Positions 1,287-48,963 of a stretch of 64,000 nucleotides of DNA are shown one piece after another. This DNA is from Candidatus Zambryskiibacteriota bacterium (GTDB lineage: Bacteria > Patescibacteriota > Minisyncoccia > Phycocordibacterales > WO2-35-19). Location: assembly GCA_003233455.1 (NCBI GenBank), contig QILQ01000043.1:442-64441 (forward strand), read 5' to 3'. A program made the position numbers and the translations under genes. Position 1 is the stretch's first letter. Each line of letters begins with the position of its first letter. The notes beneath the pieces are model-generated. The model was not told where the DNA came from. It searched no databases and worked only from the letters and a program-made list of their open reading frames with translations.

Positions 1287-1892
1287 ATGAGTCATCCAAA
1301 AAAAGAAAGAACTTTAGTAGTGATAAAACCTGATGGAGTGCAGAGAACTCTTATTGGTGAAATAATAGGCAGATTTGAAAAAATAGGTTTAAAACTTGTG
1401 GGAATAAAAATGGTTGTTCTCACTGAAGATTTTATTGAAAAACATTATACTCTTAATCCTGAGTGGAGAAGAATTACCGGAGAAAAACGCGTAAAGGCAG
1501 CGAGAGAAAAAGGAGAAAAACTTCCAACAGAAGATCCGTTTGAAATAACAGCAGTTATTCTTGAAAAATTAAAAAAATATATGACCAGTGGACCGGTTTT
1601 GGCAATGGTTTGGCAGGGAGCTCATTCGGTGGAACTTGTTAGAAAAATTACTGGCGGGACTGAACCAAGAAGTTCTGATGTGGGCACTATTCGCGGGGAT
1701 TATGTTATTGATTCTTATAAAATGGCCGATGACGATGGTAGGGCAGTTAGAAATCTAATTCACGCTTCCGGCACGGTTGATGAAGCGGAAAAAGAAATAA
1801 AACATTGGTTTAAGGAAAATGAGCTTATAAATTATCGTTTAATTGCTGAACAAATTTTGTATGATGTAAATTTGGACGGGTTGTTGGAATAG
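1287..1892 (+). CDS. ndk: Nucleoside diphosphate kinase with ~40-aa internal insertion
   Basis: VIKPDGVQR, HASGTVDEAEKEI blocks of NDK family. Confidence 0.85.
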   Translation: MSHPKKERTLVVIKPDGVQRTLIGEIIGRFEKIGLKLVGIKMVVLTEDFIEKHYTLNPEWRRITGEKRVKAAREKGEKLPTEDPFEITAVILEKLKKYMTSGPVLAMVWQGAHSVELVRKITGGTEPRSSDVGTIRGDYVIDSYKMADDDGRAVRNLIHASGTVDEAEKEIKHWFKENELINYRLIAEQILYDVNLDGLLE

Positions 1893-16648: not shown

Positions 16649-17111
16649 AGGATTTACTTTGATAGAGCTTCTCGTTGTTATCGCTATTATTGGGATACTT
16701 TCATCTATTATTCTTGGGAGTCTTAATAATGCCAGAGCTAGTGCTAGAGATTCAAAAAGAAAGCAAGAAATGATATCTATGCAAACAGCTCTTGAATTGT
16801 ATTATTTTGATAATGGTGTGTATCCTTCAACTAATGGTTCTTGGCGAGGGGCTGTTACATTTGGTAATTATGGAACAGGTGCAACAGGATATATTCCCGG
16901 GTTAGTTCCCAATTATATACCTGTTTTACCGTTAGATCCAAGTGGTACTAATGATGGATATCTCTATCGTTCTAATGGTACTAACTATAAATTGCTTTCA
17001 CATAAAAGTCCGGAGAGTTATCCTGCCCCTGGGACCAAATTTTATGATTCTGCCAGACCCACTTGGGCATGGAAGCTATGTAGTGGAGAACCTGCTTGTA
17101 GTAGTTGGTAA
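16635..17111 (+). CDS. Type IV pilin (prepilin, class III signal peptide)
   Basis: MKTSKGFTLIELLVVIAIIGIL N-terminus; paralog of 50175-50627. Confidence 0.75.
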   Translation: MKTSKGFTLIELLVVIAIIGILSSIILGSLNNARASARDSKRKQEMISMQTALELYYFDNGVYPSTNGSWRGAVTFGNYGTGATGYIPGLVPNYIPVLPLDPSGTNDGYLYRSNGTNYKLLSHKSPESYPAPGTKFYDSARPTWAWKLCSGEPACSSW

Positions 17112-23856: not shown

Positions 23857-23941
23857 GCGCGAGTGGTGGAATTGGTAGACACGCTGGCATGAGGTGCCAG
23901 TGCCGTAAGGTGTGCAGGTTCAAGTCCTGTCTCGCGCACCA
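23857..23941 (+). tRNA. tRNA-Leu (anticodon GAG), long variable arm, CCA encoded
   Basis: Acceptor GCGCGAG/CTCGCGC, anticodon loop AT-GAG-GT, T-arm GGTTCAAGTCC. Confidence 0.8.
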
Positions 23942-23982: not shown

Positions 23983-24639
23983 GTGAGTATTATGCTTTAC
24001 ACTAAAAAAGGAGATGATGGAACAACCAAAACATTCGGATGCGATCAACGGATATCAAAAAGTTCGGCGGTTGCGGAAGCTTTAGGAAATCTTGACGAAA
24101 TAAACTCATTTTTAGGTCTTTGTAAGGTTCAAGCGACTTATCTTGGTTTTAAGTTGAAGGATACGAATTTGGCTGACTTTGTTCATAATATGCAAAAAAA
24201 TCTTTTTATTATTCAAGCGGAAATAGCTGGAGCTGATAAAGTAATTACTGAAGATAAAGTTAAAGAATTAGAAGAGATTGTGGATAATATTGAAAAGGAA
24301 TTACCGCCGATAAAATCTTTTTTCATCTCTGGAGGTACATCTGATATGACCAAGTGGCAATTGGGGGGAGCGGGGCTTGGAGCTATTTTTGATATTGCTC
24401 GCGTTATTGCCAGAAGAGCCGAGAGAAGGGTAATCGTTTTAGATGAAGAAATATCCCAACCTCAACTTCCAATTTCCAAATTAAAACAAGATAAAAATAA
24501 TCCGTCAGCTGACGGAATAAAAGAAATAAGTAAACAAACTAAAGCTTATTTAAATAGACTTTCAAGTGCTCTATATGCACTGGCTCGCTATTCAAATCAT
24601 AAAGTTGGCATAATAGAAGAAGCTCCTGATTATCGGTAA
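23983..24639 (+). CDS. PduO-type ATP:cob(I)alamin adenosyltransferase-like protein with C-terminal extension
   Basis: MLYTKKGDDGTT...EALGNLDEINSFLGL N-terminal signature. Confidence 0.6.
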   Translation: MSIMLYTKKGDDGTTKTFGCDQRISKSSAVAEALGNLDEINSFLGLCKVQATYLGFKLKDTNLADFVHNMQKNLFIIQAEIAGADKVITEDKVKELEEIVDNIEKELPPIKSFFISGGTSDMTKWQLGGAGLGAIFDIARVIARRAERRVIVLDEEISQPQLPISKLKQDKNNPSADGIKEISKQTKAYLNRLSSALYALARYSNHKVGIIEEAPDYR

Positions 24640-24710: not shown

Positions 24711-24787
24711 GGTGGTAGTAGCTCAGCTAGTAGAGCGCCGCTCTGTGGAAGCGGAGGTCGTGGGGGCAGAACCCATCTACCACCCAT
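24711..24787 (+). tRNA. tRNA-His (anticodon GTG) with G-1:C73; atypical T-loop, no encoded CCA
   Basis: G-1 GTGGTAG acceptor pairs CTACCAC+C73; anticodon stem CCGCT/AGCGG, loop CT-GTG-GA. Confidence 0.55.
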
Positions 24788-29172: not shown

Positions 29173-29708
29173 ATGAGTAAACAACAAATACAAGAAAGTA
29201 GAAATTGGTATGCCATCCATACTTATTCCGGTTATGAGAATGCGGTAACCAGAAACCTTATGAGTCTTTAGGTATGGAAGACAAAATTTTTGATGTTATT
29301 GTCCCAACTGAAAAAAAAATAAAAATAAAAGGTAATAAAAGAGTTGAAGAAAAAGAAAAAATTTATCCTGGTTATGTTTTGGTGAATATGATTGTTACCG
29401 ATGATTCATGGTATGTAGTCAGAAATACACCAAGAGTGACTGGTTTTGTTGGTGCTGGGGTTTTTCCGGTGCCTCTCGCTCAAAAAGAAGTAGATGAACT
29501 TTTTAAGAGAATGAATTCAGATAAAGTTAAACATAATATAGATTTATCTTTAGACGATGCTGTTAAAATTGTTGACGGACCGTTTAAAGATTTGGAAGGT
29601 AAAGTGGGGGAGGTGGATGAAGAAAGGGGTAAAGTCAAAATATTAGTGCCGATGTTTGGTAGAGAAACACCGGTAGAGTTGGATTTCTTGCAAGTGAAGA
29701 AGATTTAA
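29173..29708 (+). CDS. nusG: Transcription antiterminator NusG, interrupted by a frameshift near 29269-29274 (N-terminal 32 aa in one frame, rest in +2 frame)
   Basis: MSKQQ..WYAIHTYSGYEN (frame A) then SLGMEDKIFDVIVPTE...PGYVLVNM, KOW domain (frame B); TAG-gt-ATG junction. Confidence 0.7.
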
Positions 29709-29834
29709 TTGACTTAATTTTTTATTTAAGTTAATATCATGTTTCGTCGAAAGCGAATTTGCAAAAGTTCTCGGGTCGCTTCTTACAGAGCTCAACCAGA
29801 CTTTTAAAATTCATTTTCGGCTTCACATTCAATT

Positions 29835-30260
29835 ATGGCAAAGAAAATCACCAAAAAAATAAAATTAGTTATAGCGGCAGGTAAAGCAACACCTGCTCCT
29901 CCTGTCGGCACTGCTTTGGGTCCGGCTGGTATCAACATCGGTGAATTTGTTACTAAATTTAATGAGGCTACCAGAGAGATGACTGGTGCTTTAGTGCCAG
30001 CTGAAATTTCTGTTTATGAAGATAGGACTTTTGATTTTATATTAAAAACTTCGCCTGCTTCAAGTCTTATTATGAAGGCGATTAACATTAAAAAAGGTTC
30101 GGGCAAAACTCCAGTTCAGAAAGTTGGATCCATTACTCGCCAACAATTGGAAGAAATTGCTCAAACAAAAATGGTAGACCTAAACGCCACCAATTTGGAA
30201 GCAGCTGTTAAAATTATCGTCGGCACTTGTCAAAGTATGGGAGTGGAGGTGAAGGGATAA
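29835..30260 (+). CDS. rplK: 50S ribosomal protein L11
   Basis: PPVGTALGPAGINI motif. Confidence 0.9.
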   Translation: MAKKITKKIKLVIAAGKATPAPPVGTALGPAGINIGEFVTKFNEATREMTGALVPAEISVYEDRTFDFILKTSPASSLIMKAINIKKGSGKTPVQKVGSITRQQLEEIAQTKMVDLNATNLEAAVKIIVGTCQSMGVEVKG

Positions 30261-30335: not shown

Positions 30336-31010
30336 TTATTTTTTCTTAATATCTTTATCATTATAAAGTTGAGGTAGCATGTTTTTAGGACTCCATTCTT
30401 TTATCATTTTTTTGATATTTTTTGTGGTTTGATATTTTCCTAATTTACTATAATCTTGGTCAAGAATTTCTCCAGTTTCAAAAAAAATAAGTTGAGCAAT
30501 ACGACGACCTACCACGAGAGGAATATAATAATGTTTGGAATTATTAGTAATCTCCATAGTCCAACGATTTATATAACCCACATCTCCCCAACCAGCACAT
30601 TTACAAACTTCAATAAAACTTCTTCCAAGAGAAGACCTTGCTTTCATCATAGTGGTAATATGATTTCGTCCACCTATAAATTCATTAGTATGAGCTAAAA
30701 TGGTTTCTCCCGGAGCAAGCATTATTACTTTATCTTTTGGAGATATATTTCCGAATTTAAATTTGTAATCTTTAAACACTTCATTGGCCTTTTTTGCTCG
30801 TAATGGAGTAGTTCCCCATACATAATCTACATGCTCTTTTTCGTATATATTGAAAATATTTTGGAAATGTTTTGGTGGTTGTTCAACAAAAAAATATTCA
30901 CCAAGAGTTAGGTCATAACTTGAGGTAGAAAGATTATTTTTTATGAATGGTTCAATAATTATATTGCCATTTTTTATTTCTTCAATTATTTTTTTATTAC
31001 TAAGTGCCAT
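30336..31010 (-). CDS. dcd: dCTP deaminase family protein (possibly bifunctional dCTP deaminase/dUTPase)
   Basis: N-terminal IIIEPF, C-terminal GWGDVGY..RWTMEI.N blocks. Confidence 0.65.
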   Translation of the reverse strand: MALSNKKIIEEIKNGNIIIEPFIKNNLSTSSYDLTLGEYFFVEQPPKHFQNIFNIYEKEHVDYVWGTTPLRAKKANEVFKDYKFKFGNISPKDKVIMLAPGETILAHTNEFIGGRNHITTMMKARSSLGRSFIEVCKCAGWGDVGYINRWTMEITNNSKHYYIPLVVGRRIAQLIFFETGEILDQDYSKLGKYQTTKNIKKMIKEWSPKNMLPQLYNDKDIKKK

Positions 31011-31036
31011 AATTTTAATATTCTATACAAACATTT

Positions 31037-32569
31037 TTATCTTTTTTTTGATTTATTTTTTATTGATTCAAATATAAGAGGTTTATCTTGAATATACGGA
31101 ATATTTGTAGAAATTGCAATTTCTGCCTTCTGGAGTTCTGCTCCTATATCAAGAAGATGTTCTGGTAAGTTTACAAGTTCTAACTGGGCAATTTTTTTAG
31201 AAACTTCAATTGCTGTTTTCCCTACTATAGTTAATAGGTCGTCTCCACTTGGAGTTTTAAAATGGGCACTTATTTTATTATCTTTAATACTTATAATAAA
31301 GAGACCTCTTGGATCACCACTCACACTTGGGTCAAAACCAAGATAAGGTTCTCTTTTCCATAAAGAACATTGCACTAATTTTTTTGCATCAACCCATTCT
31401 GCTTCATATATATGAGCTGATTGAGAAGTAATTTGTAAACTTCCAATTTTTAATCCCGCTTGAGTGGCAATTTCTTTTTGTAAAGCTCTTAAACCAAAAG
31501 CATTTGGTATTGCTGCTTTAAAAATATCATGACTCCTAACTGTAACCAGTAAATGCATTTTTTTGTTTGTTTGAAGAACTTGGATTTGAGTTATACACGG
31601 TGGCTCTTTAGAGTCTTTGTCTATCCAAGGAACAAGAGTAGTAGCTACTCCACGTCGCGTATCTATAGAATCTTTTAATTCTTTAATTATAATTTCTTTA
31701 ATTTGATTAACCTCACTTTTAGCTCCAGGATATCTCATTAGTCTGTTTCCATATGTATATTTTACACCTTTCGGAGTATCTGGAGATAAGAAAATAGATT
31801 TATAATGATTAATTGATTCTTTATTTAAACCAATAGTTTGTTTTAAACTTTTTGGTAAGTCCATATTTAGATTTGGATTATCTGGATCTTCTTCTTCAAC
31901 AACCCATGTTACACCAATTAACTCTCTTTGTTGTGTTCCGTATTGTGTTCCTTTGATTGTGCCATAACGTATAATACGATCAACTACTCTTATCCAAGCA
32001 TCAGTTATGGTTTTTCCTCTAACAATAAAACCAACTTTTTCGGAAGGAAAAACATCTATAACTTCTGGTATTGCATCTTTAAATCTAACAGATTTCATAT
32101 AGGGAGCTTCTTTACTTTCTAAAAGTTTTTTTGCTACTGTATGAATTTTTGGATCTGATAATTCTTTTAAACTAACATTTTTTATAATCTTATTTACTAT
32201 ATCTACATCTATTTCTTTTTCTATCTTGAAATCAATTCCCGGTATCTCTCTTTTTTTGTTTATTCCTTTTTTCCACAATTTAAGTAAAATTTCTTTACCA
32301 GAAACTCCAAAAGGACTGCAGGATAAAGCACCATTATTCCAAATGTATAAATTACGTATTTGAGGATTTAAAGCTAGATTTCTCAATATTATATTAACTC
32401 CTTGTCTACTATATAAAGTGCCTACAATTGCAGAACGTTTTAAAATATCAGGACATTCCTTTATAATTTTTTCTGGCTCATTCCAAAGAGTGCAAAAACC
32501 CGCACTTTTACCTTTACCTAATATTACTTTGTATTTATTAGATTGGTATAATTTTTCAGAAGTAATCAT
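31037..32569 (-). CDS. Thymidylate synthase (ThyA)-like enzyme with ~180-aa N-terminal and ~100-aa C-terminal extensions
   Basis: EPPC (catalytic Cys), RSHD, IPNAFG (Asn = dUMP specificity), AHIY blocks of ThyA/dNMP hydroxymethylase fold. Confidence 0.6.
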   Translation of the reverse strand: MITSEKLYQSNKYKVILGKGKSAGFCTLWNEPEKIIKECPDILKRSAIVGTLYSRQGVNIILRNLALNPQIRNLYIWNNGALSCSPFGVSGKEILLKLWKKGINKKREIPGIDFKIEKEIDVDIVNKIIKNVSLKELSDPKIHTVAKKLLESKEAPYMKSVRFKDAIPEVIDVFPSEKVGFIVRGKTITDAWIRVVDRIIRYGTIKGTQYGTQQRELIGVTWVVEEEDPDNPNLNMDLPKSLKQTIGLNKESINHYKSIFLSPDTPKGVKYTYGNRLMRYPGAKSEVNQIKEIIIKELKDSIDTRRGVATTLVPWIDKDSKEPPCITQIQVLQTNKKMHLLVTVRSHDIFKAAIPNAFGLRALQKEIATQAGLKIGSLQITSQSAHIYEAEWVDAKKLVQCSLWKREPYLGFDPSVSGDPRGLFIISIKDNKISAHFKTPSGDDLLTIVGKTAIEVSKKIAQLELVNLPEHLLDIGAELQKAEIAISTNIPYIQDKPLIFESIKNKSKKR

Positions 32570-32589
32570 TCTATGATAATATCATTATT

Positions 32590-33234
32590 ATGAAAAAAGG
32601 AAAATTTATTGTTTTTGATGGTAGTGATGGATCTGGTAAACAGACACAAGTTGCCCTGTTGAAATCTTACTTAAGAGAAAAAGGAGTTCTGGTTGAAACA
32701 ATTGATTTTCCTCAATACAAAAATAACTTTCATGGGAAAATTTTGAAAGCAGCTCTTCGGGGAGAGTTTGGGGATTTTATTTCTCTTAATCCTTATACTG
32801 CTTCACTTCTTTATACTGCTGATCGTTTTGAATCAGTAGGTAAAATCAAAGAGCTTCTTGAAAGAGGTTATACTGTGATTGCCGACAGATTTACAACTGC
32901 AAATATGATTCATCAAGGGGGTAAGTTTCCTGATACAAATGAGAGAGACAAGTATTTGAAATGGCTTTTAGGTTTGGAATTTGAGTATTTGAAATTTCCT
33001 AAACCAGATGCAGTTGTTTTTCTTAAGGTTCCGGTTGAAGTTTCTTTGAGACTTTTAGAAGATAAAAAAGGAAAAGATAAAGCAGAAGAAAGCACTTCTT
33101 ATCTTACTAATTCTCTTGTGTGTGCAGAAGCAATCGCGAAGAAGTATGGTTGGATTGTGGTGAATTGTGCACCTAATGGTGTAATGCGATCACGCGAATC
33201 AATTCATAAGGAAGTAGCGGGCTTATTTTTTTAA
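32590..33234 (+). CDS. tmk: Thymidylate kinase
   Basis: FIVFDGSDGSGKQTQ P-loop, DRF motif. Confidence 0.8.
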   Translation: MKKGKFIVFDGSDGSGKQTQVALLKSYLREKGVLVETIDFPQYKNNFHGKILKAALRGEFGDFISLNPYTASLLYTADRFESVGKIKELLERGYTVIADRFTTANMIHQGGKFPDTNERDKYLKWLLGLEFEYLKFPKPDAVVFLKVPVEVSLRLLEDKKGKDKAEESTSYLTNSLVCAEAIAKKYGWIVVNCAPNGVMRSRESIHKEVAGLFF

Positions 33235-33863
33235 TTCAAAATTTCTCCAGTTAAAGATTTTGGATTTTTTCCGTCCCAAGATATTTCGCCAGTTAAAACT
33301 TTTTCAGTGATGATGGGTTGCCAACGATGTTCAACTTCATTTACTCTTTTAGCTAAAGTTTCAATAGTGTCGGTTGGCAAAATTTTTACTTTTTGGCTGA
33401 AAAATAAAGGACCACGATCGTATTCTTCTGTTACAAAATGCATTGATACGGCCGAGTGAGATATATCTTCATTTTTATAGGCTTTTATCACTGCTTCATG
33501 AACATAATGTCCATACATTCCGGCACCACCAAATTTAGGTAAAGGTCCGGGATGAATATTGATAGTTTTTTGAGGGTCAAGACCAGTAACTAATTTGAGC
33601 CAACCAGACAAACAAACTAAATCTGTCCCTTTTGTTATTTCTTGATATTTTTCTGCTGTCCATGGTTTAGGGAAATGAATAAATTTGATACCAAGTCTGT
33701 CAGCTTTTTCTCTCACTCCACCATTTTTATGATTGGAAACTACCGCTGAAATTTCGGCGTTTAAAAGACCGCTTTGGCTGGCTTTGACCATATTTTCAAA
33801 ACCACTTCCACCTCCGTCTTTAGTGCCAGAAGCGAATATAATTATTTTTTTCATTTTTCCCAT
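33231..33863 (-). CDS. PurN-like folate-dependent formyltransferase (GAR transformylase family)
   Basis: IIIFASG...SGW...INIHPGPLP...HFVTEEYDRGP blocks. Confidence 0.65.
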   Translation of the reverse strand: MGKMKKIIIFASGTKDGGGSGFENMVKASQSGLLNAEISAVVSNHKNGGVREKADRLGIKFIHFPKPWTAEKYQEITKGTDLVCLSGWLKLVTGLDPQKTINIHPGPLPKFGGAGMYGHYVHEAVIKAYKNEDISHSAVSMHFVTEEYDRGPLFFSQKVKILPTDTIETLAKRVNEVEHRWQPIITEKVLTGEISWDGKNPKSLTGEILN

Positions 33864-33930: not shown

Positions 33931-34188
33931 ATGAAAACTAAAAAGACAAAAAATAATAAAGTAATAAATTTACCTGTACTTATTGAGCAAGATGAAAACG
34001 GGATGTTTGTTGGATCTGTGCCATCTTTACGCTCTTGTTATACTCAAGGTAAAACTCTTGAAGAACTTTATAAAAACCTAGAAGAAGTGGTTGAGCTTTG
34101 TACTGAGGCAGATAAAGAATTTTTTGGAAATAAAATCTATAGCAATAAAATTATAGGATTTCAAAATCTTTCTTTTTCACTTCGTTAA
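33931..34188 (+). CDS. hicB: HicB-family antitoxin
   Basis: IEQDENGMFVGSVPSLRSCYTQGKTLEELYKNLEEVVE matches HicB (UPF0150). Confidence 0.6.
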   Translation: MKTKKTKNNKVINLPVLIEQDENGMFVGSVPSLRSCYTQGKTLEELYKNLEEVVELCTEADKEFFGNKIYSNKIIGFQNLSFSLR

Positions 34189-34415
34189 TGTCACATTTAT
34201 CACCAATTTCACCAAAAAAACTCATAAAACTTTTAAAAAATGAGGGCTTTGTTTGTGTTAAAATAAAAGGAAGTCATCATTTTTTCTTGAATAATATTGA
34301 TAAAAGAACTACTTCTGTACCACTGCACGGTAATAAAGATATTGGGGTGGGACTTTTGCATAAGATTATTAAAGATATAAAAATGTCTGTTGAAAATTTT
34401 AAAAAGAAATTATAA
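34188..34415 (+). CDS. hicA: HicA-family toxin (mRNA interferase)
   Basis: KLLKNEGF...KGSHHFF...TSVPLHGNKDIGVGLLHKIIKDI matches HicA. Confidence 0.6.
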   Translation: MSHLSPISPKKLIKLLKNEGFVCVKIKGSHHFFLNNIDKRTTSVPLHGNKDIGVGLLHKIIKDIKMSVENFKKKL

Positions 34416-34589: not shown

Positions 34590-34853
34590 ATGAAAACTGT
34601 ATTAAATGTAAAAATGCTAAAAAAGGAAGCACAAAAAATTGCCAAAGAGGCTGGTATTCCTCTGAGTCTTGTGGTAGATAATGGATTGAGAAAATTTGTA
34701 GCTCGCAGAGCAATTACCGTTGAAGCGCCACTTATTCCAAATGCAAAAACTGCCAAGATTTTGGATAGAGTTTTGAAAGATATCAAAGAGGGAAAAAATA
34801 TTGAAGGACCATTCTATTCTGTAGAGGAATTTATGAAAGGTCTTAAATCCTAG
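34590..34853 (+). CDS. RelB/DinJ-family antitoxin
   Basis: Paralog of 19254 and 63330 ORFs. Confidence 0.55.
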   Translation: MKTVLNVKMLKKEAQKIAKEAGIPLSLVVDNGLRKFVARRAITVEAPLIPNAKTAKILDRVLKDIKEGKNIEGPFYSVEEFMKGLKS

Positions 34854-34862
34854 CTTTGAATT

Positions 34863-35126
34863 ATGTTGCTCGTTTACAGGCACAAAAAATTTTCTAAGGA
34901 ATTTAAGAAGCTTCTTAGGGTTGTTCAAGAAAAATTTGAGCAAAAAATAGGAATTTTTGTCATAGATCAGTATTCGGTTGGATTTAATAACCATGGTCTA
35001 AAAAGGAAATATAACGGTTGTAGGAGTATTGATATTACTGGAGATTATAGGGCAATATATTACATAAATAACAGTATTGCAATTTTTATCCATATAGGCA
35101 CTCATCATCAGCTTTATGGAAAATAA
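34863..35126 (+). CDS. YafQ/RelE-family toxin
   Basis: C-terminal IHIGTHHQLY (GTHSDLF-like); paralog of 63640-63900. Confidence 0.6.
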   Translation: MLLVYRHKKFSKEFKKLLRVVQEKFEQKIGIFVIDQYSVGFNNHGLKRKYNGCRSIDITGDYRAIYYINNSIAIFIHIGTHHQLYGK

Positions 35127-42437: not shown

Positions 42438-43547
42438 ATGAGTTTTATTTCCGATATTTTTAAAAAGAAAAAAGTAAGTGCTTTAGGTATTGATATAGGT
42501 TCCTCTTCTATAAAGATAGTTCAACTTCAAAAAAAAGGAAGTAAAGCGATATTGGAAACATATGGGGAACTTTCTTTAGGTCCTTATAGCGGAGTTTCAG
42601 TTGGTCAATCCACTAATTTGCCTGTTGAAAAAATAATACAAGCAATGAATGATTTACTTAATGAAAAAGAAGTCGCCATTACCACTAAATTTTGCGGTTT
42701 AGCTATTCCTTTCAAAGCAAGTTTACTCTCAATTATACAAATGCCAGATATAGGACAAAAAGAATTGACTTCTATGGTGCCGATAGAAGCTCGCAAATAT
42801 ATACCGGTGCCGATATCGGATGTTACCATTGATTGGTCTATTGTGCCTAAATCTGAAGTGGTAGAAGATTCTTCTAAAGAAAAAACAGATAAAAATAAAG
42901 TAAAAACCGTAGATATTTTATTGGTAGCTATTCATAATAATATTATCAATCAATATAAAGAAATTGTCTCTAAAACTCAACTTAACGCTAAATTTTTTGA
43001 GATAGAAGTCTTTAGTTCAATGAGAGCTATTCTTGAAGGCATCAAAGGTCCTATTATGATTTTTGATATGGGAGCTTCAACTACTAAATTGTATGTGGTG
43101 GATAGGGGTTTAGTTCAAAATTCACACACCATAAATCAAGGTTCTCAGGATATAACTTCAAATATTGCCAGAGTTTTAAATGTTTCAACAGAAGAAGCGG
43201 AAGTTATAAAAAGATCTGTTGGTATGGGTAAAACTGTGGATGGAGTAGATCTTTCAGAAATGGTATTAGTGATTGCTGGCAATATTTTTGCTGAAGCGAA
43301 TAGATTTCTTTTTGATTTTCAAAAGAAAAAAAATAAAAATATAAAATCAGTATTTTTGACTGGTGGCGGTTCAGCTCTTTTGGGTTTTAGAGATTTGGCT
43401 GCTCAAAATTTTAAAGTGGAAGTAATTTCCGCGGACCCTTTTGAAAAAGTGGAAACTCCCGCCTTTTTGGAAAATATACTTAAAGTAACAGGTCCTGAAT
43501 TTACCGTGGCTGTCGGCGCCGCTCTTCGTTGTTTGGAAGAGATTTAA
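42438..43547 (+). CDS. pilM: Type IV pilus assembly protein PilM (actin-like ATPase fold)
   Basis: ALGIDIGSSSIKIVQL N-terminus. Confidence 0.75.
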   Translation: MSFISDIFKKKKVSALGIDIGSSSIKIVQLQKKGSKAILETYGELSLGPYSGVSVGQSTNLPVEKIIQAMNDLLNEKEVAITTKFCGLAIPFKASLLSIIQMPDIGQKELTSMVPIEARKYIPVPISDVTIDWSIVPKSEVVEDSSKEKTDKNKVKTVDILLVAIHNNIINQYKEIVSKTQLNAKFFEIEVFSSMRAILEGIKGPIMIFDMGASTTKLYVVDRGLVQNSHTINQGSQDITSNIARVLNVSTEEAEVIKRSVGMGKTVDGVDLSEMVLVIAGNIFAEANRFLFDFQKKKNKNIKSVFLTGGGSALLGFRDLAAQNFKVEVISADPFEKVETPAFLENILKVTGPEFTVAVGAALRCLEEI

Positions 43548-43648
43548 TTATATTTATATTATTTTAGTATGAAGAATAAAAATGGGATGTAGGAATTATT
43601 AACATAATCTATTGACAGATTGGCTACTTTGGCTATAATAGCTATTAT

Positions 43649-43903
43649 ATGAATCAAATAACATTTACAGCAAAAGAAGCAAAAAATAATTTTGGTAGGC
43701 TTTTAGATGAAGCTCGTCGTTCTCCTGTGGCTATAAACAAAAACGGCAGAAAAGTTGCTTTTGTGGTTTCTTATGAAGATTTTTCTCAATTTGAAGGAAT
43801 GGTAGATTCTTATTGGGGCAAAAAAGCTAAAACGGCAATAAAAAAAGGATATCTGACTGTTGCTGAAAGTAAAAAATTTGTAGATTCTATTTTAAATGCT
43901 TAA
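43649..43903 (+). CDS. Phd/YefM-family antitoxin
   Basis: N-terminal ITFTAKEAKNNFGRLLDEARRSPVAINKNGRKVAFVVSYEDF typical of Phd/YefM. Confidence 0.55.
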   Translation: MNQITFTAKEAKNNFGRLLDEARRSPVAINKNGRKVAFVVSYEDFSQFEGMVDSYWGKKAKTAIKKGYLTVAESKKFVDSILNA

Positions 43904-44168
43904 TATTAGATTTTCAAAATTATCAAAGAAATTTGTAGAAAGAGTTCCAATAAAACACAGAAGACAAATTGTTGAAAAATCTGTAAGTCTAAAAAATAAT
44001 CCTCTACCTTCGGATAGTAGGGCTATGAAGGGATTTCCGGGTTATTTTCGTGTTGATATTGGGGAATATAGGATTATTTATACAATTTCAGAATCTAAAA
44101 TAAATATTGAACTAATTGGTAAAAGAAACGACGACGAAGTTTATCGTAAATTTAAAAGACTTATGTGA
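43896..44168 (+). CDS. RelE/ParE-family toxin
   Basis: GYFRVDIGEYRIIYTI...IELIGKRNDDEVY; 8-nt overlap with antitoxin. Confidence 0.65.
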   Translation: MLNIRFSKLSKKFVERVPIKHRRQIVEKSVSLKNNPLPSDSRAMKGFPGYFRVDIGEYRIIYTISESKINIELIGKRNDDEVYRKFKRLM

Positions 44169-44239
44169 TTAGTAACTGAAGTAATCAACAATATTTGTTT
44201 ACACTTGTGCGGGTTTATGAAGTATAATTAAAATAAATT

Positions 44240-44812
44240 ATGGCACCAAACTTTCAATCATCATTCATACCCAAAGGACCGGTTACTCAAGAGGTTTTTA
44301 AAAAGAAAAAAACCAGTTTGTTTGGTATTTTAGTAATTTTTTTGTTTATCGCCTCAATAATCATTTCTATCGGTCTGTTTGTTTACAAAGGTATTGTTAA
44401 AAATGATATTAAAAATCTTCAATCTCAACTAACTGTGGCAGAAACAAAAATAGATAGAAAAGAAATCAATGAGATGTCTCAATTTAGCAAAAAATTAGGT
44501 TTTACCAAGTTAATTATTTCCAAACATCAAGTAGTTTCAAATTTTATGGACACTTTAGCTTCTTCTACTGTTAGCTCGGTTTATTTTGATGATTTTAATT
44601 ATGATAATTTGAAAAAAGGCAATAATTTGACTGTTGTTTTGCATGGCAAGGCTACTGATTATGCGAGTGTCGCTTTACAAGAAAATGTATTTTCTCAAAA
44701 TAAATATTTTAAATCGGTAACATTTTCCAATCTGACTTTAACAGACAAAGGTCTTGTTTCTTTTGATTTAACCATTTCTGTTGACCCACGAATTTCTGTT
44801 TATTCTCCGTAA
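44240..44812 (+). CDS. PilN-like bitopic pilus assembly protein
   Basis: Single N-terminal TM + coiled coil; position after pilM. Confidence 0.4.
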   Translation: MAPNFQSSFIPKGPVTQEVFKKKKTSLFGILVIFLFIASIIISIGLFVYKGIVKNDIKNLQSQLTVAETKIDRKEINEMSQFSKKLGFTKLIISKHQVVSNFMDTLASSTVSSVYFDDFNYDNLKKGNNLTVVLHGKATDYASVALQENVFSQNKYFKSVTFSNLTLTDKGLVSFDLTISVDPRISVYSP

Positions 44813-44834
44813 TTTATAATATTAAAATTAAAAT

Positions 44835-45383
44835 ATGAGTAATACTTCAATAATCGCATATCTGATATTAACTCTCTCAATAGGGTATGCTTTTATTTAT
44901 CCCGCAACGGGGAATTTGTCTGTTCTTATGAAGGAAAAACAAAAATATAATGACTCTTTGGAAACAGTTAGCAATATTAAGAATAAAAAAAGTGAATTAT
45001 TAACCAAATTTAATAATATATCTGTTGCTGATAAAAAAAATATAAATATTATCTTGCCAAACTCTTTGAATTTTGTGAAGTTAATCTCTCAAATTGACGC
45101 GGTGGCAGCGAATTATAACATATCAATAGATAAAGTTACTTCAAAAAAAACAGCTCCCGCTAGCGGAAAATCAATAGGAGAGAAACAACCCCCTAAAACA
45201 TATGATTCGGCGATTATCGGATTTTCATTTATCGCTCCTTACAACAAATTTAGTAATTTTATGGATGATTTAGAGAAGAGTCTGCGTATTTTAGATATAA
45301 GGTCTGTAAAATTAAAGACTCAAGAAAATGGAAATTACTCATATAATGTTGAATTTGAAACTTATTGGCTTAAACCATCATGA
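44835..45383 (+). CDS. PilO-like pilus assembly protein
   Basis: N-terminal TM, position. Confidence 0.4.
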   Translation: MSNTSIIAYLILTLSIGYAFIYPATGNLSVLMKEKQKYNDSLETVSNIKNKKSELLTKFNNISVADKKNINIILPNSLNFVKLISQIDAVAANYNISIDKVTSKKTAPASGKSIGEKQPPKTYDSAIIGFSFIAPYNKFSNFMDDLEKSLRILDIRSVKLKTQENGNYSYNVEFETYWLKPS

Positions 45384-45703
45384 AAAATAAAAACTCAAAA
45401 AATAAACACACCTCTATTTTAATTATAATCCTTTTAGGACTCTTAATTATAGCTTATAAAATTATGTTTATTTCACCTAATGAAAATTTAATTACTGATG
45501 AAAATACTGTCGCTAGTGTGAGAGCGACAGCTATCCTGCAAGAAATTAAAGATATGAATTTTGATACAAATGTGGTAAATAATCCTAAATTCAAATCTCT
45601 AAAAAGTATTGAAGCTCCATTATTTTCTCTACCTATTGGAAGAAAAAATCCGTTTGCCAGCAATTCCATTTCTAATTCCATTTCTAATTCCATTTCTAAT
45701 TAA
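45380..45703 (+). CDS. Hypothetical membrane-anchored protein with C-terminal NSIS x3 repeat (12-bp tandem DNA repeat 45661-45700)
   Basis: TM segment; tandem repeat visible. Confidence 0.3.
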   Translation: MKNKNSKNKHTSILIIILLGLLIIAYKIMFISPNENLITDENTVASVRATAILQEIKDMNFDTNVVNNPKFKSLKSIEAPLFSLPIGRKNPFASNSISNSISNSISN

Positions 45704-45712
45704 CATTTCATT

Positions 45713-47482
45713 ATGAGTATTTTAGATATTCTTGTAAAACAGGGTGTAATTGAAACTAAAGACCTTTCTTCTATAAAAGGAAAAACAAACTCTTCCAGAA
45801 AAGACATAGAAGAAAGTTTAGTGTCTTTGGGAATTAGCGAAGAAGATATTTTAAGAGCCAAAGCTGAATATTATTCTATGCCCATTAAAAAAGTTGATAT
45901 ATCGCTTATAACCAGCAAAGCACTTGATTATATTCCGGAAGAAGCCGCGGTTTATTATCAATTTGTGCCTATGGGGGTAAACGATGGCGTTTTGGAAGTT
46001 GGAGTGGTGGATCCGGATAATATTTCAGCTCGTGACGCTTTAAATTTTATATCATCTAAAGTAAATTTACCGTTTAAAACTTTTATTATTTCTCAAGATA
46101 ATTTTGATGAAATTATAAAATTATATAAAGGTTTGTCCGGCGAGGTAACTAAAGCTCTATCCGAACTTGAAACTGAATTCGTAAATGATTCTAAAGAAAA
46201 TAATAAAAAATCAAAAGAAAGTAAAAAAGTGAGTTTAACGGCAACTTCTGGCGATAATGAAAATGATTTAAGTGCTTCCGAAAACAAAGGCACTAAAATT
46301 ATTGAAAATGCTCCAGTTACCAAAATAGTAGCCACTATTTTAAGATACGCTATTGACGGTAGGGCATCCGATATTCACATAGAACCGACTGCTTCAAATG
46401 TAAAAGTTCGGTTTAGAGTGGATGGTATTATGAATACCAGTATTGTTCTTCCTTTAAGAGTTCATAGTGCTATTGTGGCCAGAATTAAAATTATGTCTAA
46501 TATGAGGCTTGACGAGAAAAGAAAACCTCAAGATGGTAGATTTAGTGCGAAATTAAATGAAAGAAAAGTGGATTTTAGAGTGTCTACTTTCCCAACTTAT
46601 TTTGGTGAAAAAGTGGTTATACGTATTTTGGACCAAGAAAAAGGAATTCGTAAATTAAGTGAACTTGGCTTAAGTAAAAGAAATCTGGAACTGATTATGG
46701 ATGCCATAAAACTGCCTTATGGTCTTATTCTTATATCCGGTCCAACCGGTTCGGGAAAATCTACTACTTTATATTCTATGATGAACGAAGTTGATAGAGA
46801 CCATAAAAATGTGCTTTCTCTTGAAGACCCGATTGAATATAATATGGAAGGTATGAGTCAATCGCAAGTTATGCCGGAAATAGGTTATACTTTTGCTTCC
46901 GGTCTTCGGACTACTCTTCGTCAGGATCCGGATATTATAATGGTGGGTGAGATAAGAGATAAAGAAACAGCTCAACTTGCGATTCAAGCGGCACTTACTG
47001 GACATTTGGTTTTTTCCACTATTCATACCAATACCGCTATAGGAGTAATACCTCGTCTTATTGATATGGGTATAGATCCTTATCTTATCGCTCCCACTTT
47101 GGTATTGGCTATTGCTCAACGATTGGTCAGATCATTTTGCCCAGGAGCGGGCAAGCCGATTAAAGTTGATGCTAGTATTGAAATAATGATATCTAAACAA
47201 CTTGAAGATTTACCTGAAGAATATAAAAAAGAAATTCCAATTGGAAAAGAAGTTTATGAAATTTCTCCGGCTCCCAATTGTCCAAGCGGAGTTAAAGGTA
47301 GAGTGGCGGTAATGGAAGTGCTTAAAGTTGATAAAAAAATGGAACAAATCATTCTTAAAAATCCGACTGAACAAGAAATTTGGAAATATGCCAGAGCTAA
47401 AGGTATGCTTACAATGAAAGATGACGCCTTAATAAAAGTTTTCAATAAAATTATTCCTTTTGAAGAATATAATAGTTTATAG
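45713..47482 (+). CDS. pilB: Type IV pilus assembly ATPase PilB (GspE family)
   Basis: N-terminal T2SSE_N domain, Walker A GPTGSGKSTT, Asp/His boxes. Confidence 0.9.
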   Translation: MSILDILVKQGVIETKDLSSIKGKTNSSRKDIEESLVSLGISEEDILRAKAEYYSMPIKKVDISLITSKALDYIPEEAAVYYQFVPMGVNDGVLEVGVVDPDNISARDALNFISSKVNLPFKTFIISQDNFDEIIKLYKGLSGEVTKALSELETEFVNDSKENNKKSKESKKVSLTATSGDNENDLSASENKGTKIIENAPVTKIVATILRYAIDGRASDIHIEPTASNVKVRFRVDGIMNTSIVLPLRVHSAIVARIKIMSNMRLDEKRKPQDGRFSAKLNERKVDFRVSTFPTYFGEKVVIRILDQEKGIRKLSELGLSKRNLELIMDAIKLPYGLILISGPTGSGKSTTLYSMMNEVDRDHKNVLSLEDPIEYNMEGMSQSQVMPEIGYTFASGLRTTLRQDPDIIMVGEIRDKETAQLAIQAALTGHLVFSTIHTNTAIGVIPRLIDMGIDPYLIAPTLVLAIAQRLVRSFCPGAGKPIKVDASIEIMISKQLEDLPEEYKKEIPIGKEVYEISPAPNCPSGVKGRVAVMEVLKVDKKMEQIILKNPTEQEIWKYARAKGMLTMKDDALIKVFNKIIPFEEYNSL

Positions 47483-47504
47483 GATGGCGATATAAACTAT
47501 ATCA

Positions 47505-47921: not shown

Positions 47922-47931
47922 TTTTATTTTT

Positions 47932-48959: not shown

Positions 48960-48963
48960 CTTT

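What the first reader, a model, noticed from the sequence alone, without database searches (positions are those of the whole stretch)
30336..33863. Compact pyrimidine module with an extended ThyA-like enzyme and an orphan PurN-like formyltransferase
The locus runs dcd, a 510-aa ThyA-fold enzyme, tmk, then a convergent PurN-family formyltransferase. The ThyA-like protein keeps the catalytic PPC, RSHD and the Asn of the dUMP-specificity loop, but it carries unexplained extensions of about 180 aa at the N-terminus and about 100 aa at the C-terminus. A stand-alone GAR-transformylase-like protein is odd in an organism that probably lacks purine synthesis. Taken together the module could be plain dTTP synthesis, or it could be a dUMP hydroxymethylase / hypermodified-thymidine pathway of the kind seen in phages.
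Basis: inference. Interest (0 to 1): 0.55.

Follow-up and report, generated by a model that had tools for sequence, protein, structure and literature searches.

The report
Thymidylate synthase wrapped in corrinoid-protein domains
This is the cell's ordinary thymidine-nucleotide gene cluster, but its thymidylate synthase sits inside a two-part accessory module related to a vitamin-B12-binding protein, a pairing found across tiny bacteria and archaea and absent from every paper search run here.

Summary
The four genes are real: a dCTP deaminase of the dUMP-forming type, a 510-aa ThyA, a dTMP kinase and a PurN-like formyltransferase. The ThyA core keeps every nucleotide-binding and catalytic residue of thymidylate synthase. 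It lies in a nusG-rplK-tmk-dcd-thyA neighbourhood conserved across Patescibacteria. The locus is therefore housekeeping dTTP synthesis, not a phage-like base-modification pathway.

In uncultured archaea the same module keeps MtrA's cobalt-ligand motifs. There it is a separate gene followed by a stand-alone ThyA wherever enough downstream DNA is held, or it is fused to Dcd. Stand-alone DUF4346 genes lie in B12-riboswitch/BtuB operons and beside B12-radical-SAM genes. This points to a corrinoid-protein accessory of thymidylate synthesis that my literature searches did not find described. The window's protein has lost the cobalt-ligating His, so its ligand remains open.

The PurN-like gene belongs to a highly conserved Parcubacterial family. 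It is linked to thyA only in close relatives, and its substrate is unknown.

The parts
30336..31010 (-). dCTP deaminase (Dcd), probably the dUMP-forming bifunctional type. It supplies dUMP.
   Evidence: PF22769 E 1e-31; TIGR02274 93.8 bits, cutoff 92.8. The best solved relative is the M. jannaschii bifunctional dCTP deaminase/dUTPase 1OGH, E 1.2e-16 over residues 1-199. It is 49% identical to the DCD next to ThyA-ext in L006.
31037..32569 (-). ThyA-ext: a 510-aa thymidylate synthase with an MtrA-like N-domain and a DUF4346 C-domain (whole gene).
32054..32569 (-). N-terminal MtrA-fold domain (residues 1-172), 'class II'. It keeps MtrA's nucleotide-tail pocket residues (Ser54 for Thr53, Gly57, Ile61, Asn64, Asn68-Pro69). 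It lacks the cobalt ligand His84, Glu54 and the GAIPFxEN motif.
31358..32038 (-). Archaeal-type ThyA catalytic core (residues 178-404). Key residues with E. coli numbering in brackets: Glu216 (E58), Tyr273 (Y94), Arg305/306 (R126/127), Cys325 (C146), Arg345-Ser346-His347-Asp348 (R166, S167, D169), Asn356 (N177), His386/Tyr388 (H207/Y209).
   Evidence: TIGR03283 156.7 bits over 182-393. Alignments to solved ThyA. Residue conservation across 71 fused family members: Cys 71/71, Tyr273 69, Arg345 70, Asp348 68, Asn356 69.
31070..31327 (-). C-terminal PF14251 (PterinBD-DUF4346) domain (residues 415-500), with the family-invariant residues Asp419, Gly422, His471, Glu478, Lys481, Glu483, Tyr492, Gln494, Asp495.
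   Evidence: PF14251 E 1.1e-13, 52.2 bits, cutoff 29.6. TIGR00284 C-terminal 80 positions, E 1.2e-9. Invariance over 328 domains from all contexts, His471 327/328. No solved relative by sequence.
32590..33234 (+). dTMP kinase (Tmk), divergent from ThyA-ext.
   Evidence: PF02223 E 6.8e-23; NF005923 112.9 bits. tmk neighbours ThyA-ext in L001, L002, L004, L005, L006, L092, L094 and L095.
33231..33863 (-). PurN-like formyltransferase of a conserved Parcubacterial family. It is a neighbour and probably not part of the module.
   Evidence: PF00551 E 3e-22; TIGR00639 95.3 bits, below the 150.1 cutoff. About 30% identical to solved GAR transformylases, with NIHP and Asp of the catalytic triad aligned and the GxGSN loop changed to GGGSG. 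The top 120 of the listed homologues are 60-82% identical. It is next to thyA only in the window and L012, and next to recG in L010 and L011.
29274..30260 (+). nusG and rplK, the conserved housekeeping anchor of the thymidylate cluster.
   Evidence: 70% and 55% identical to the NusG and L11 genes that flank tmk-dcd-thyA in L004 (Pfam on record).
23983..24639 (+). PduO-type ATP:cob(I)alamin adenosyltransferase (context: the organism handles cobalamin).
   Evidence: PF01923 E 6.5e-36. A homologue lies about 4 kb from ThyA-ext in L005. Another lies two genes downstream of a DUF4346 gene (separated by a B12-binding-domain protein) in L068.
1287..1892 (+). Nucleoside diphosphate kinase (context: the last step, dTDP to dTTP).
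   Evidence: PF00334 E 1.2e-38.

Best explanation
The locus is the organism's housekeeping route to dTTP. A dUMP-forming-type dCTP deaminase makes dUMP, the 510-aa ThyA methylates it to dTMP, Tmk makes dTDP, and Ndk elsewhere on the contig makes dTTP.

The ThyA belongs to a conserved family of about 500 aa found in Patescibacteria, DPANN archaea and one Chloroflexota MAG. In it, an archaeal-type ThyA core is inserted between the two halves of an accessory module: an MtrA-fold domain and DUF4346.

The module is older than the fusion. In uncultured archaea it is a separate gene whose MtrA domain keeps the cobalamin-ligating motifs, and it is locked to a stand-alone ThyA gene or fused to Dcd. I therefore read the extensions as a cofactor-holding partner of thymidylate synthase, derived from a corrinoid protein and held next to the active site. 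It would take part in C1 or electron delivery, or in cofactor retention.

What is shown: the domain identities, the intact catalytic residues, the synteny, the fusions and the B12 contexts. What is inferred: that the module acts in the ThyA reaction, and that its ligand is a corrinoid. In the window's own protein the cobalt-ligating His84/Glu54 pair is lost while the nucleotide-tail pocket is kept. If a corrinoid binds, it would have to bind His-off, or through the invariant His471 of DUF4346.

The PurN-like gene is a conserved neighbour, not a component.
For: Pathway genes and the ThyA core:
- Gene identities.
- Catalytic and dUMP-binding residues are intact and conserved family-wide.
- The core is closest to the archaeal thymidylate synthase model TIGR03283, 156.7 bits.
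- Synteny nusG-rplK-tmk-dcd-thyA holds in L004, L005 and L006. In L012 a dCMP deaminase replaces dcd.

Identity of the extensions:
- C-domain: PF14251, E 1e-13.
- The N-domain profile finds only 316 cluster representatives among 1.84 billion. The scored ones are overwhelmingly N-ThyA-C. A few are N-C proteins with no ThyA, for example P0171.
- NCBIfam NF002128 spans both domains of such N-C proteins.

Archaeal split systems:
- MtrA (PF04208, 152 bits) plus DUF4346 lies directly upstream of a stand-alone ThyA in L074, L076 and L085.
- The same holds in 21 of 34 metagenome loci, which is every locus that holds about 1 kb or more of DNA downstream of the module gene.
- Eight loci carry a Dcd-MtrA-DUF4346 triple fusion.
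- L085 has an MtrH homologue between the MtrA and DUF4346 genes (PDB 9qtp_o, E 4.6e-37).
- These MtrA domains keep the TEN, GH (His84) and GA[IM]Pxx[KE]N motifs (PMC4915002).

DUF4346 and B12:
- The gene order BtuB-DUF6580-DUF4346 occurs in 7 Pelagibacteraceae-type loci (L017-L030).
- Six of them (L019, L020, L021, L026, L027, L030) show an AdoCbl-II riboswitch of 44-75 bits directly upstream of the uptake genes (BtuB, or DUF6580-BtuB in L030).
- The metagenome locus L013 has the same gene order and a 40-bit riboswitch cut off by the contig end. L014 has the same order but is cut before the upstream region.
- DUF4346 lies adjacent to or near B12-binding radical SAM genes in L032, L038, L048 and L054. 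In L068 it is followed by a B12-binding-domain protein and then a PduO adenosyltransferase.
- The window itself encodes a PduO adenosyltransferase.
Against: - The window's N-domain, like those of all ThyA-fused members, lacks His84, Glu54 and the GAIPFxEN motif that MtrA uses to hold cobalamin. It may therefore bind no corrinoid at all.
- The ThyA core keeps Asp348 (D169, a pterin contact) and Glu216 (E58). The canonical methylene-pterin / hydride chemistry may run unaided, as it presumably does in stand-alone archaeal ThyA.
- Pfam labels PF14251 a pterin-binding domain, and it is also fused to DHPS-like pterin enzymes (L075, L080).
- MtrH accompanies the system in only one locus.
- No riboswitch lies in the window or in the ThyA-ext loci scanned (L004-L006, L012).
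- Contact between the N- and C-domains and the active site could not be measured.
- All functional links are genomic, and nothing is biochemical.
Confidence: 0.6

Rival explanations
1. Ordinary folate-dependent thymidylate synthase whose extensions bind the pterin cofactor. The MtrA-like/DUF4346 module would hold or channel scarce, scavenged folate. It might even re-reduce dihydrofolate in place, as a functional analogue of the DHFR half of bifunctional DHFR-TS.
For: - Pfam names PF14251 'PterinBD'.
- The domain ends DHPS-like pterin enzymes (TIGR00284; L075 and L080 have PF00809 plus PF14251).
- ThyA and DHPS both release 7,8-dihydropterin products (established biochemistry).
- The ThyA core keeps the pterin-contacting Asp.
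- folA was detected in only 54.8% of 4,581 CPR genomes (PMC11974145).
- 28 of 120 close homologues end in a CxxC tail, which could shuttle electrons.
- One relative has an FNR-like reductase gene just downstream (L006).
Against: - Stand-alone DUF4346 genes sit in B12-riboswitch/BtuB operons and beside B12-radical-SAM and PduO genes, not beside folate genes.
- The module's older form is a bona fide His-on MtrA corrinoid domain.
- The N-domain has no dinucleotide-binding motif.
- The downstream reductase is not conserved.
- The window's own protein lacks the CxxC tail.
Confidence: 0.22
2. The extensions have no part in chemistry. They would be a regulatory or scaffolding remnant of a corrinoid protein. 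Examples are a B12-status sensor that couples dTMP synthesis to a B12-dependent ribonucleotide reductase, or a docking platform that assembles Dcd, ThyA and Tmk.
For: - The module is fused either to ThyA or to Dcd, which fits a scaffold of a multi-enzyme complex.
- The cobalt ligand is lost in all fused forms.
- The organism has a PduO adenosyltransferase, implying AdoCbl-dependent enzymes.
Against: [quoted passage not shown]
- Eight polar residues of DUF4346 are invariant (>=318 of 328) or nearly so (Lys481 278, Tyr492 280) across all contexts. This is the pattern of a ligand site rather than of a docking surface.
Confidence: 0.12
3. The ThyA-fold enzyme is a dUMP hydroxymethylase or another base-modifying enzyme, and the locus makes a modified thymidine, as in some phages.
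For: - MilA is the best single-sequence PDB hit.
- No sequence rule known to me separates dUMP hydroxymethylases from synthases.
Against: - The family occupies the conserved housekeeping slot beside tmk, dcd or dCMP deaminase, nusG and rplK in many small genomes, where it is the annotated thymidylate synthase.
- The best family model is the archaeal thymidylate synthase, 156.7 bits against 36-41 bits for the bacterial ThyA models.
- With a family profile, true synthases outrank MilA.
- Phage records match only the core, at under 32% identity.
- No glycosyl-, amino- or kinase-type hypermodification genes are adjacent.
Confidence: 0.04
4. The PurN-like formyltransferase is a working partner of the thymidylate module, for example in balancing the 10-formyl and 5,10-methylene folate pools.
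For: - It lies beside the thymidylate cluster (separated from thyA by tmk) in the window, and directly beside thyA in L012, with the same argS-rpsS flank.
- The catalytic Asn-His-Asp are kept.
- The family is under strong constraint: the 120 top-ranked listed homologues are 60-82% identical.
Against: - In L010 and L011 the orthologue lies next to recG, with no thymidylate genes.
- ThyA-ext loci L001 and L003-L006 have no PurN-like neighbour.
- Between the window and L012 the PurN-like gene is 76% identical while the ThyA-ext is only 30% identical, so the two genes do not co-evolve.
Confidence: 0.08

Closest known systems
Archaeal (methanogen-type) thymidylate synthase ThyA, NCBIfam TIGR03283
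   Same: The catalytic core (residues 182-393) matches this model far better than the bacterial ThyA models (156.7 bits against 36-41 bits). Cys nucleophile, Tyr, Arg pair, RSxD and Asn are all kept.
   Different: The score is below the equivalog cutoff of 174.55. The model describes a stand-alone protein of about 200 aa. Here the core is embedded between a 175-aa MtrA-fold domain and a 105-aa DUF4346 domain. The C1 donor of archaeal ThyA is itself poorly characterised (PMC9931769, PMC9012536).
MtrA, the cobalamin-binding subunit of methyl-H4MPT:coenzyme M methyltransferase, and its cytoplasmic homologues (PDB 5LAA, 5L8X; Pfam PF04208)
   Different: His84 (cobalt ligand), Glu54 and the GAIPFxEN segment are absent. 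There is no membrane anchor. The domain is followed by ThyA and DUF4346 instead of belonging to an Mtr complex. The archaeal relatives encoded beside stand-alone ThyA do keep the MtrA ligand motifs.
Bifunctional DHFR-TS of protozoa and plants (e.g. PDB 8dae)
   Different: The fused domain here is not a DHFR fold, it flanks ThyA on both sides, and no reductase activity is shown.
ThyX (flavin-dependent thymidylate synthase)
   Same: Precedent for thymidylate synthesis in which a second cofactor takes over the reducing role and the folate stays reduced. It is common in reduced genomes (PMC9931769).
   Different: Unrelated fold. No flavin-binding signature was tested or seen here.
ThyA-fold pyrimidine-modifying enzymes: MilA CMP hydroxymethylase (5JNH), T4 dCMP hydroxymethylase (6L18), 9IQC (FAD/dCMP 'monooxygenase')
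   Different: The cytosine-specific enzymes carry Asp where this protein and 69 of 71 family members have Asn. The genomic context here is housekeeping, not a phage or an antibiotic cluster.
PurN, GAR transformylase (TIGR00639; PDB 4DS3, 3AV3, 1C2T)
   Same: The PurN-like protein has the same length and fold family. NIHP and the catalytic Asp are aligned. The closest solved proteins are all GAR transformylases.
   Different: The score is 95.3 bits against a cutoff of 150.1. The GxGSN phosphate loop reads GGGSG, with a 4-residue insertion before it. There are two insertions near the folate loop. No pur genes were seen within about 5 kb on each side in the four loci examined.

Membership tests
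Thymidylate synthase ThyA (PF00303) | Pfam/NCBIfam profile match above threshold and the ThyA fold | tested here: met
   [not shown]
Thymidylate synthase ThyA (PF00303) | Catalytic Cys in the P-C motif, plus the Arg pair, R-S-x-D, Tyr94 and Glu58 equivalents | tested here: met
   Cys325, Arg305/306, Arg345-Ser346-Asp348, Tyr273 and Glu216 are present and conserved in at least 57 of 71 fused members, and in at least 65 of 71 for all but Arg306.
Thymidylate synthase ThyA (PF00303) | Asn (uracil) rather than Asp (cytosine) at the E. coli N177 position | tested here: met
   Asn356; Asn in 69/71 family members. MilA has Asp at the aligned position (alignment).
Thymidylate synthase ThyA (PF00303) | Product is dTMP, with methylene-tetrahydropterin as both C1 donor and reductant | not testable with these tools
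   Needs an enzyme assay or complementation.
Archaeal thymidylate synthase equivalog TIGR03283 | Whole-protein score above the curated cutoff; stand-alone architecture of about 200 aa | tested here: not met
   156.7 bits against a cutoff of 174.55. The protein is 510 aa with two extra domains.
MtrA (PF04208), corrinoid-binding domain | MtrA Rossmann-type fold | tested here: met
   [not shown]
MtrA (PF04208), corrinoid-binding domain | Sequence profile match above the Pfam threshold | tested here: inconclusive
   The window's N-domain gives no PF04208 hit. 8 of 29 family members give weak hits, best E 8.8e-5. NF002128 E 8.6e-5/7.6e-3. Family profile against PDB MtrA E 3.6e-4.
MtrA (PF04208), corrinoid-binding domain | His84 cobalt ligand hydrogen-bonded to Glu54, and the GAIPF-x-EN segment (PMC4915002) | tested here: not met
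   The His84 column holds V/I/L/K or a gap in all ThyA-fused members. Glu54 is Arg55 here. The segment reads FKIEKEI. Only the archaeal split-gene forms (L074, L076, L085, L086) keep these features.
MtrA (PF04208), corrinoid-binding domain | Nucleotide-tail pocket residues (Thr53, Gly57, Val61, Asn64) | tested here: met
   Ser54, Gly57, Ile61 and Asn64. Gly57 and Asn64 are invariant and Ser54 is at least 90% conserved in the family (residues).
MtrA (PF04208), corrinoid-binding domain | Binds a cobamide | not testable with these tools
   Needs spectroscopy of purified protein.
PF14251 PterinBD-DUF4346 | Profile match above the gathering score, with the family-invariant residues | tested here: met
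   52.2 bits, cutoff 29.6. Asp419, Gly422, His471, Glu478, Lys481, Glu483, Tyr492, Gln494 and Asp495 are all present.
PF14251 PterinBD-DUF4346 | Binds a pterin, as the Pfam name implies | not testable with these tools
   No solved relative. No paper found for DUF4346 or PterinBD. Genomic contexts point to cobalamin instead.
Phage-type dUMP/dCMP hydroxymethylase pathway | Phage or mobile-element context with downstream hypermodification genes | tested here: not met
   The neighbourhood is housekeeping. Phage matches are limited to the core at under 32% identity.
PurN GAR transformylase (TIGR00639) | Score above the equivalog cutoff | tested here: not met
   95.3 bits against 150.1.
PurN GAR transformylase (TIGR00639) | Catalytic Asn-His-Asp triad | tested here: met
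   NIHP and D of 'EEYDRGP' align with NIHPSLLP and D of 'EGMDEGP' in 4DS3.
PurN GAR transformylase (TIGR00639) | GAR-phosphate loop GxGSN, and a pur-gene context | tested here: inconclusive
   The loop reads GGGSG, with Asn replaced by Gly. No pur genes are adjacent in the window, L010, L011 or L012. The rest of the genome was not available.
dCTP deaminase (TIGR02274), dUMP-forming subtype | Score above the cutoff; closest characterised relative is bifunctional | tested here: met
   93.8 bits against 92.8. The three top-ranked distinct PDB sequences (1OGH, 3GF0, 2HXD) are all the M. jannaschii dUMP-forming enzyme. Bifunctionality itself was not tested.

The most novel reading that the evidence does not exclude
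The MtrA-like/DUF4346 module is a protein-bound corrinoid station that takes a direct part in thymidylate synthesis. It would either pass a methyl group (Co-CH3) to the Cys-activated C5 of dUMP, or supply the reducing step. Either way the pterin is not oxidised and no dihydrofolate reductase is needed. This would be a third, B12-linked mode of thymidylate synthesis beside ThyA and ThyX. It would be ancestral in an archaeal lineage (split genes, His-on MtrA, once with MtrH) and streamlined into a single polypeptide in CPR and DPANN organisms.
Probability: 0.2. Interest if true: 0.9.

Novelty: new variant of a known kind. Interest (0 to 1): 0.7.

Why it matters
Thymidylate synthesis is one of the best-studied steps of DNA precursor metabolism, and only two enzyme solutions are known, ThyA and ThyX. 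Here a large share of the ultra-small bacteria and archaea (CPR, DPANN) carry a ThyA that is permanently joined to a module derived from a B12-binding protein. In related archaea the still B12-competent form of that module is genetically locked to ThyA and Dcd.

If the module works in catalysis, three things follow:
- It would link vitamin B12 to DNA synthesis in a new way.
- It would explain how archaeal-type ThyA, whose C1 donor has never been settled, is supplied.
- It would change how cofactor dependencies, and therefore host dependence, of these symbionts are inferred from genomes.

Even if the module only binds or retains the pterin, it gives a testable function to a widespread domain of unknown function (PF14251). 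It would also show that the Pfam label may be misleading.

Tried and rejected
- Conserved partner downstream of ThyA-ext: the 200-250-aa genes downstream in L001, L004, L005 and L006 are unrelated to each other (SecD fragment, FNR-like, unknowns). Rejected.
- Riboswitches near thyA: none in the window, L004-L008, L012 or L015. Only tRNAs were found.
- Fold search of the N-domain against AFDB: the library was not installed.
- Solved relatives of DUF4346 by profile: none.
- Solved relatives of DUF6580, to test a BtuM identity: none.
- Literature on DUF4346, PterinBD, MtrA + thymidylate synthase + pterin, and thymidylate synthase + MtrA + corrinoid: zero papers each.
- Nyce & White 1996 (PMC177745) is not held.
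- The paper behind PDB 9IQC was not found.
- MtrH as a regular partner: found only in L085 among about 60 loci, so it cannot be called part of the system.
- Word-indexed search with the DUF4346 profile returned mostly 128-aa marine proteins and no DHPS fusions in the listed top 120. DHPS fusions were found later through the genome scan.
- Genome-level presence of folA, glyA, folD, thyX, nrdJ and pur genes in this organism could not be checked. The window is essentially the whole contig (64,508 bp), and none of these genes is among the roughly 40 ORFs scanned.
- My first residue-conservation table was mis-registered by 2 positions. It was redone.

Full report
**1. What is in the window**

The region holds four ORFs exactly as described.

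- **dcd** (30336-31010, minus strand). It matches the dCTP deaminase family: PF22769 E 1e-31, and TIGR02274 93.8 bits against a cutoff of 92.8. Its closest solved relative is the bifunctional, dUMP-forming enzyme of M. jannaschii (1OGH, E 1.2e-16).
- **The 510-aa ThyA-like ORF** (31037-32569, minus strand). It matches thymidylate synthase, and best the archaeal model TIGR03283 (156.7 bits over residues 182-393). Bacterial ThyA models give 36-41 bits.
- **tmk** (32590-33234, plus strand). It is a dTMP kinase, divergent from thyA.
- **The PurN-like ORF** (33231-33863, minus strand). It is a PurN-like formyltransferase that scores below the PurN cutoff (95.3 against 150.1 bits).

Upstream lie nusG and rplK. 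The contig also carries ndk and a PduO-type cobalamin adenosyltransferase. Composition is about 32% GC. The names that sources give to homologues place the organism in Patescibacteria/Parcubacteria.

**2. The ThyA core is an intact, dUMP-specific enzyme in a housekeeping slot**

Alignment to solved synthases puts the following on the canonical positions:

- Cys325 on the nucleophile.
- Arg305/306 on the phosphate-binding Arg pair.
- Arg345-Ser346-Asp348 on R-S-x-D.
- Asn356 on the uracil-specifying Asn.
- His386/Tyr388 on the H-x-Y motif.

Across 71 full-length family representatives these are almost invariant: Cys 71/71, Asn 69/71, Asp348 68/71, Tyr273 69/71, Glu216 66/71.

The gene order nusG-rplK-tmk-dcd-thyA recurs in distant Patescibacteria (L004, L005, L006). 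In L012 the same slot has a dCMP deaminase instead of dcd. L012 shares the PurN-like, argS and rpsS flank with the window at 60-81% identity.

Phage genomes contain only weak matches to the core, under 32% identity, and nothing like the extensions.

The plain reading is therefore well supported: dCTP to dUMP, to dTMP, to dTDP, to dTTP. The phage-style hypermodification reading is not supported.

**3. The extensions are two recognisable domains**

- **C-terminus.** Residues about 415-500 are Pfam PF14251, 'PterinBD-DUF4346' (E 1.1e-13).

All 120 listed homologues are of similar length, 479-591 aa. A profile of the N-domain finds only 316 cluster representatives among 1.84 billion proteins. Of the 150 best that were scored locally:

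- 83 have the N-ThyA-C order, 13 of them with a large insertion in the core.
- Most of the rest are gene fragments.
- Seven are N-C hits with no detectable ThyA domain, of which some (e.g. P0171) are direct N-C fusions.

NCBIfam NF002128 covers both domains of such N-C proteins. So ThyA is best described as inserted into a pre-existing two-domain module.

**4. The module has an older, split form tied to ThyA and Dcd**

A scan of species-representative genomes with stand-alone DUF4346 sequences and a metagenome scan uncovered archaeal loci with a separate gene encoding a strong MtrA domain (PF04208, 152 bits) fused to DUF4346.

- That gene is followed directly by a stand-alone ThyA in L074, L076 and L085, and in 21 of 34 metagenome loci. 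Those 21 are every locus with about 1 kb or more of downstream DNA.
- In eight loci the gene is a Dcd-MtrA-DUF4346 triple fusion.
- dcd, tmk and rpl10e are frequent neighbours.
- In L085 an MtrH homologue lies between the MtrA and DUF4346 genes (E 4.6e-37 to solved MtrH). MtrH is the methyl-pterin:corrinoid methyltransferase.

These 'class I' MtrA domains keep the T-E-N, G-H and GA(I/M)Pxx(K/E)N motifs. In MtrA those motifs provide the cobalt ligand His84, its partner Glu54 and the conserved meander (PMC4915002).

'Class II' comprises all ThyA-fused proteins, including the window's, together with N-C proteins such as P0171 and P0235.

- Class II has lost His84 and Glu54.
- Class II keeps the residues that bind the nucleotide tail of cobalamin: Ser54 for Thr53, Gly57, Ile61 for Val61, Asn64.
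- P0235, from a Woesearchaeota-like contig, sits next to tmk.

**5. DUF4346 travels with cobalamin**

- In Pelagibacteraceae-type genomes the 129-aa stand-alone protein lies in the order BtuB-like receptor, DUF6580 membrane protein, DUF4346. This holds in seven loci of the genome scan and in two metagenome loci.
- An AdoCbl-II riboswitch lies directly upstream of the uptake genes (BtuB, or DUF6580-BtuB in L030). It scores 44-75 bits in six complete cases. A seventh, at 40 bits, is cut off by a contig end.
- In DPANN archaea and a Bacteroidetes MAG, DUF4346 is adjacent to or near B12-binding radical SAM genes (directly adjacent in L048).
- In L068 it is followed by a B12-binding-domain protein and a PduO adenosyltransferase.
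- It is also fused to DHPS-like pterin barrels in Archaeoglobi and Methanocellales (L075, L080).
- In one Aenigmatarchaeota protein (P0298) it is fused to an N-terminal Cys-rich segment that I read, from its motifs alone, as ferredoxin-like. No profile search was run on it.

Across 328 domains from all these contexts, Asp419, Gly422, His471 (327/328), Gln494 and Asp495 are invariant or nearly so (at least 318/328), Glu478, Glu483 about 90% conserved, and Lys481 and Tyr492 about 85%. That is the pattern of one shared ligand site.

No paper in the searchable library mentions the domain, or links MtrA or corrinoids to thymidylate synthase. Reviews state that the biochemistry of archaeal ThyA is barely known (PMC9931769; PMC9012536).

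**6. Interpretation**

*Shown:*
- The domain identities.
- The intact ThyA site.
- The conserved synteny.
- The fusions of the module to ThyA or to Dcd.
- The operon with stand-alone ThyA.
- The B12 contexts of DUF4346.

*Inferred:*
- The module works with ThyA.
- Its ancestral ligand is a corrinoid.

*Against a catalytic corrinoid role in the window's protein:*
- The cobalt ligand is lost.
- The pterin-contacting Asp and Glu58 equivalent are kept.
- MtrH accompanies the system only once.
- The DHPS fusions fit the pterin label.

I therefore put about 0.6 on 'dTTP module whose ThyA carries a corrinoid-protein-derived cofactor module that takes part in the reaction'. I put about 0.2 on a pterin-holding or pterin-reducing module, about 0.1 on a regulatory or scaffold remnant, and a few percent on hydroxymethylase chemistry.

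The most novel reading not excluded is a B12-linked mode of thymidylate synthesis that spares the pterin. There, the methyl group or the electrons would pass through the corrinoid.

**7. The PurN-like gene**

- It keeps the catalytic Asn-His-Asp. It is about 30% identical to true GAR transformylases, but with a changed phosphate loop and two insertions.
- It belongs to a family held at 60-82% identity among its top 120 listed homologues, several named as Patescibacteria.
- It is next to the thymidylate genes only in the window and in L012. Elsewhere it is beside recG.
- Between the window and L012 it is 76% identical, while the ThyA-ext is only 30% identical.
- It is thus a conserved neighbour rather than a component.
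- Folate-cycling genes are common in CPR: folA 54.8%, glyA 81.3%, folD 79.7% of 4,581 genomes (PMC11974145). Complete purine synthesis was reported in 32% of 399 CPR MAGs (PMC11608272). A formyl-folate-using enzyme is therefore not anomalous in itself.
- Its substrate remains unknown.

**8. Limits**

- The window is essentially the whole contig. Genome-wide presence of folA, thyX, nrdJ or pur genes could not be examined.
The spatial relation of the three domains is unknown, and pTM is 0.64.
- All functional links are comparative.

Noticed in passing
window 11322-12887 (+) and 12913-14583 (-): A 521-aa cytochrome b-like membrane protein (PF13631/PF00033) lies next to a 556-aa FAD-linked oxidase (PF01565/PF02913). 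Respiratory-type components are unusual in Patescibacteria.
   Followed up: no
window 23983-24639 (+), flanked by tRNA genes at 23857-23938 and 24712-24784: PduO-type cobalamin adenosyltransferase (PF01923, E 6.5e-36). It implies that this small genome uses adenosylcobalamin. Homologues lie near ThyA-ext in L005 and two genes downstream of a DUF4346 gene in L068.
   Followed up: partly
Family alignment A1, C-termini of P0002-P0041 (window protein ends at 31040): 28 of 120 close homologues end in a conserved ...N(V/I)C(I/N/T)(D/E)C tail, a C-terminal CxxC. The window's protein lacks it, and some distant members have longer Cys-rich tails. Such tails shuttle electrons in ribonucleotide reductases.
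   Followed up: partly
L013, L017, L019-L021, L026, L027, L030 (Pelagibacteraceae-type loci): A B12 uptake-type operon: AdoCbl-II riboswitch, BtuB-like receptor, DUF6580 membrane protein, 129-aa DUF4346 protein. It occurs in SAR11-type genomes, often beside a sugar-nucleotide/glycosyltransferase cluster with a B12-binding radical SAM gene.
   Followed up: yes
L007 4628-5992 and 6001-6810: Two paralogous modules lie side by side on an 831-kb contig. One is N-domain + DUF4346. The other is N-domain + a roughly 260-aa middle region that no longer scores as ThyA + DUF4346. Both sit in a glycan/lipid-modification cluster (LPG synthase, glycosyltransferases, DegT) and not with thymidylate genes.
   Followed up: partly
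L012 5701-7380 (-) against window 31037-32569: Two closely syntenic genomes (flanking genes 60-81% identical) carry ThyA-ext genes that are only 30% identical and of different subtypes. They also have dCMP deaminase against dCTP deaminase upstream. The thymidylate cassette has therefore been exchanged, which fits the reported transfer of thyA into Patescibacteria (PMC12455944).
   Followed up: partly
Stand-alone ThyA genes of L074 6554-7351, L076 3772-4551 and L085 6278-7141: The ThyA proteins paired with His-on MtrA modules have K-T-N-D instead of R-S-H-D. They also carry an insertion of about 30 aa with conserved Cys residues (HYPDC...GGKC), which may be a metal or redox site.
   Followed up: no
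[not shown]
   Followed up: partly
window 33931-34415 and 34590-35126 (+): Two small gene pairs lie between the PurN-like gene and argS. By their sequence motifs alone they look like toxin-antitoxin pairs (HicB/HicA-like and an antitoxin/RelE-like pair). No profile search was run.
   Followed up: no
window 50710-53874 (-): A 1054-aa protein with an N6 DNA methylase domain (PF02384) at residues 292-602, lying in the most AT-rich part of the window (GC 27-28%). It may be a fused restriction-modification enzyme on acquired DNA.
   Followed up: no
window 2108-2788 (+) and 1287-1892 (+): An AbiEii-type nucleotidyltransferase toxin (PF08843). The ndk gene's match to PF00334 is split into two stretches, which suggests an insertion.
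   Followed up: no
window 16584-17111, 42438-50175, 54210-57839: An extensive type IV pilus / type II secretion gene set: PilM, PilN, PilO, a T2SSE ATPase, T2SSF, a prepilin peptidase and at least six prepilin-like genes. This is typical of episymbiotic CPR.
   Followed up: no
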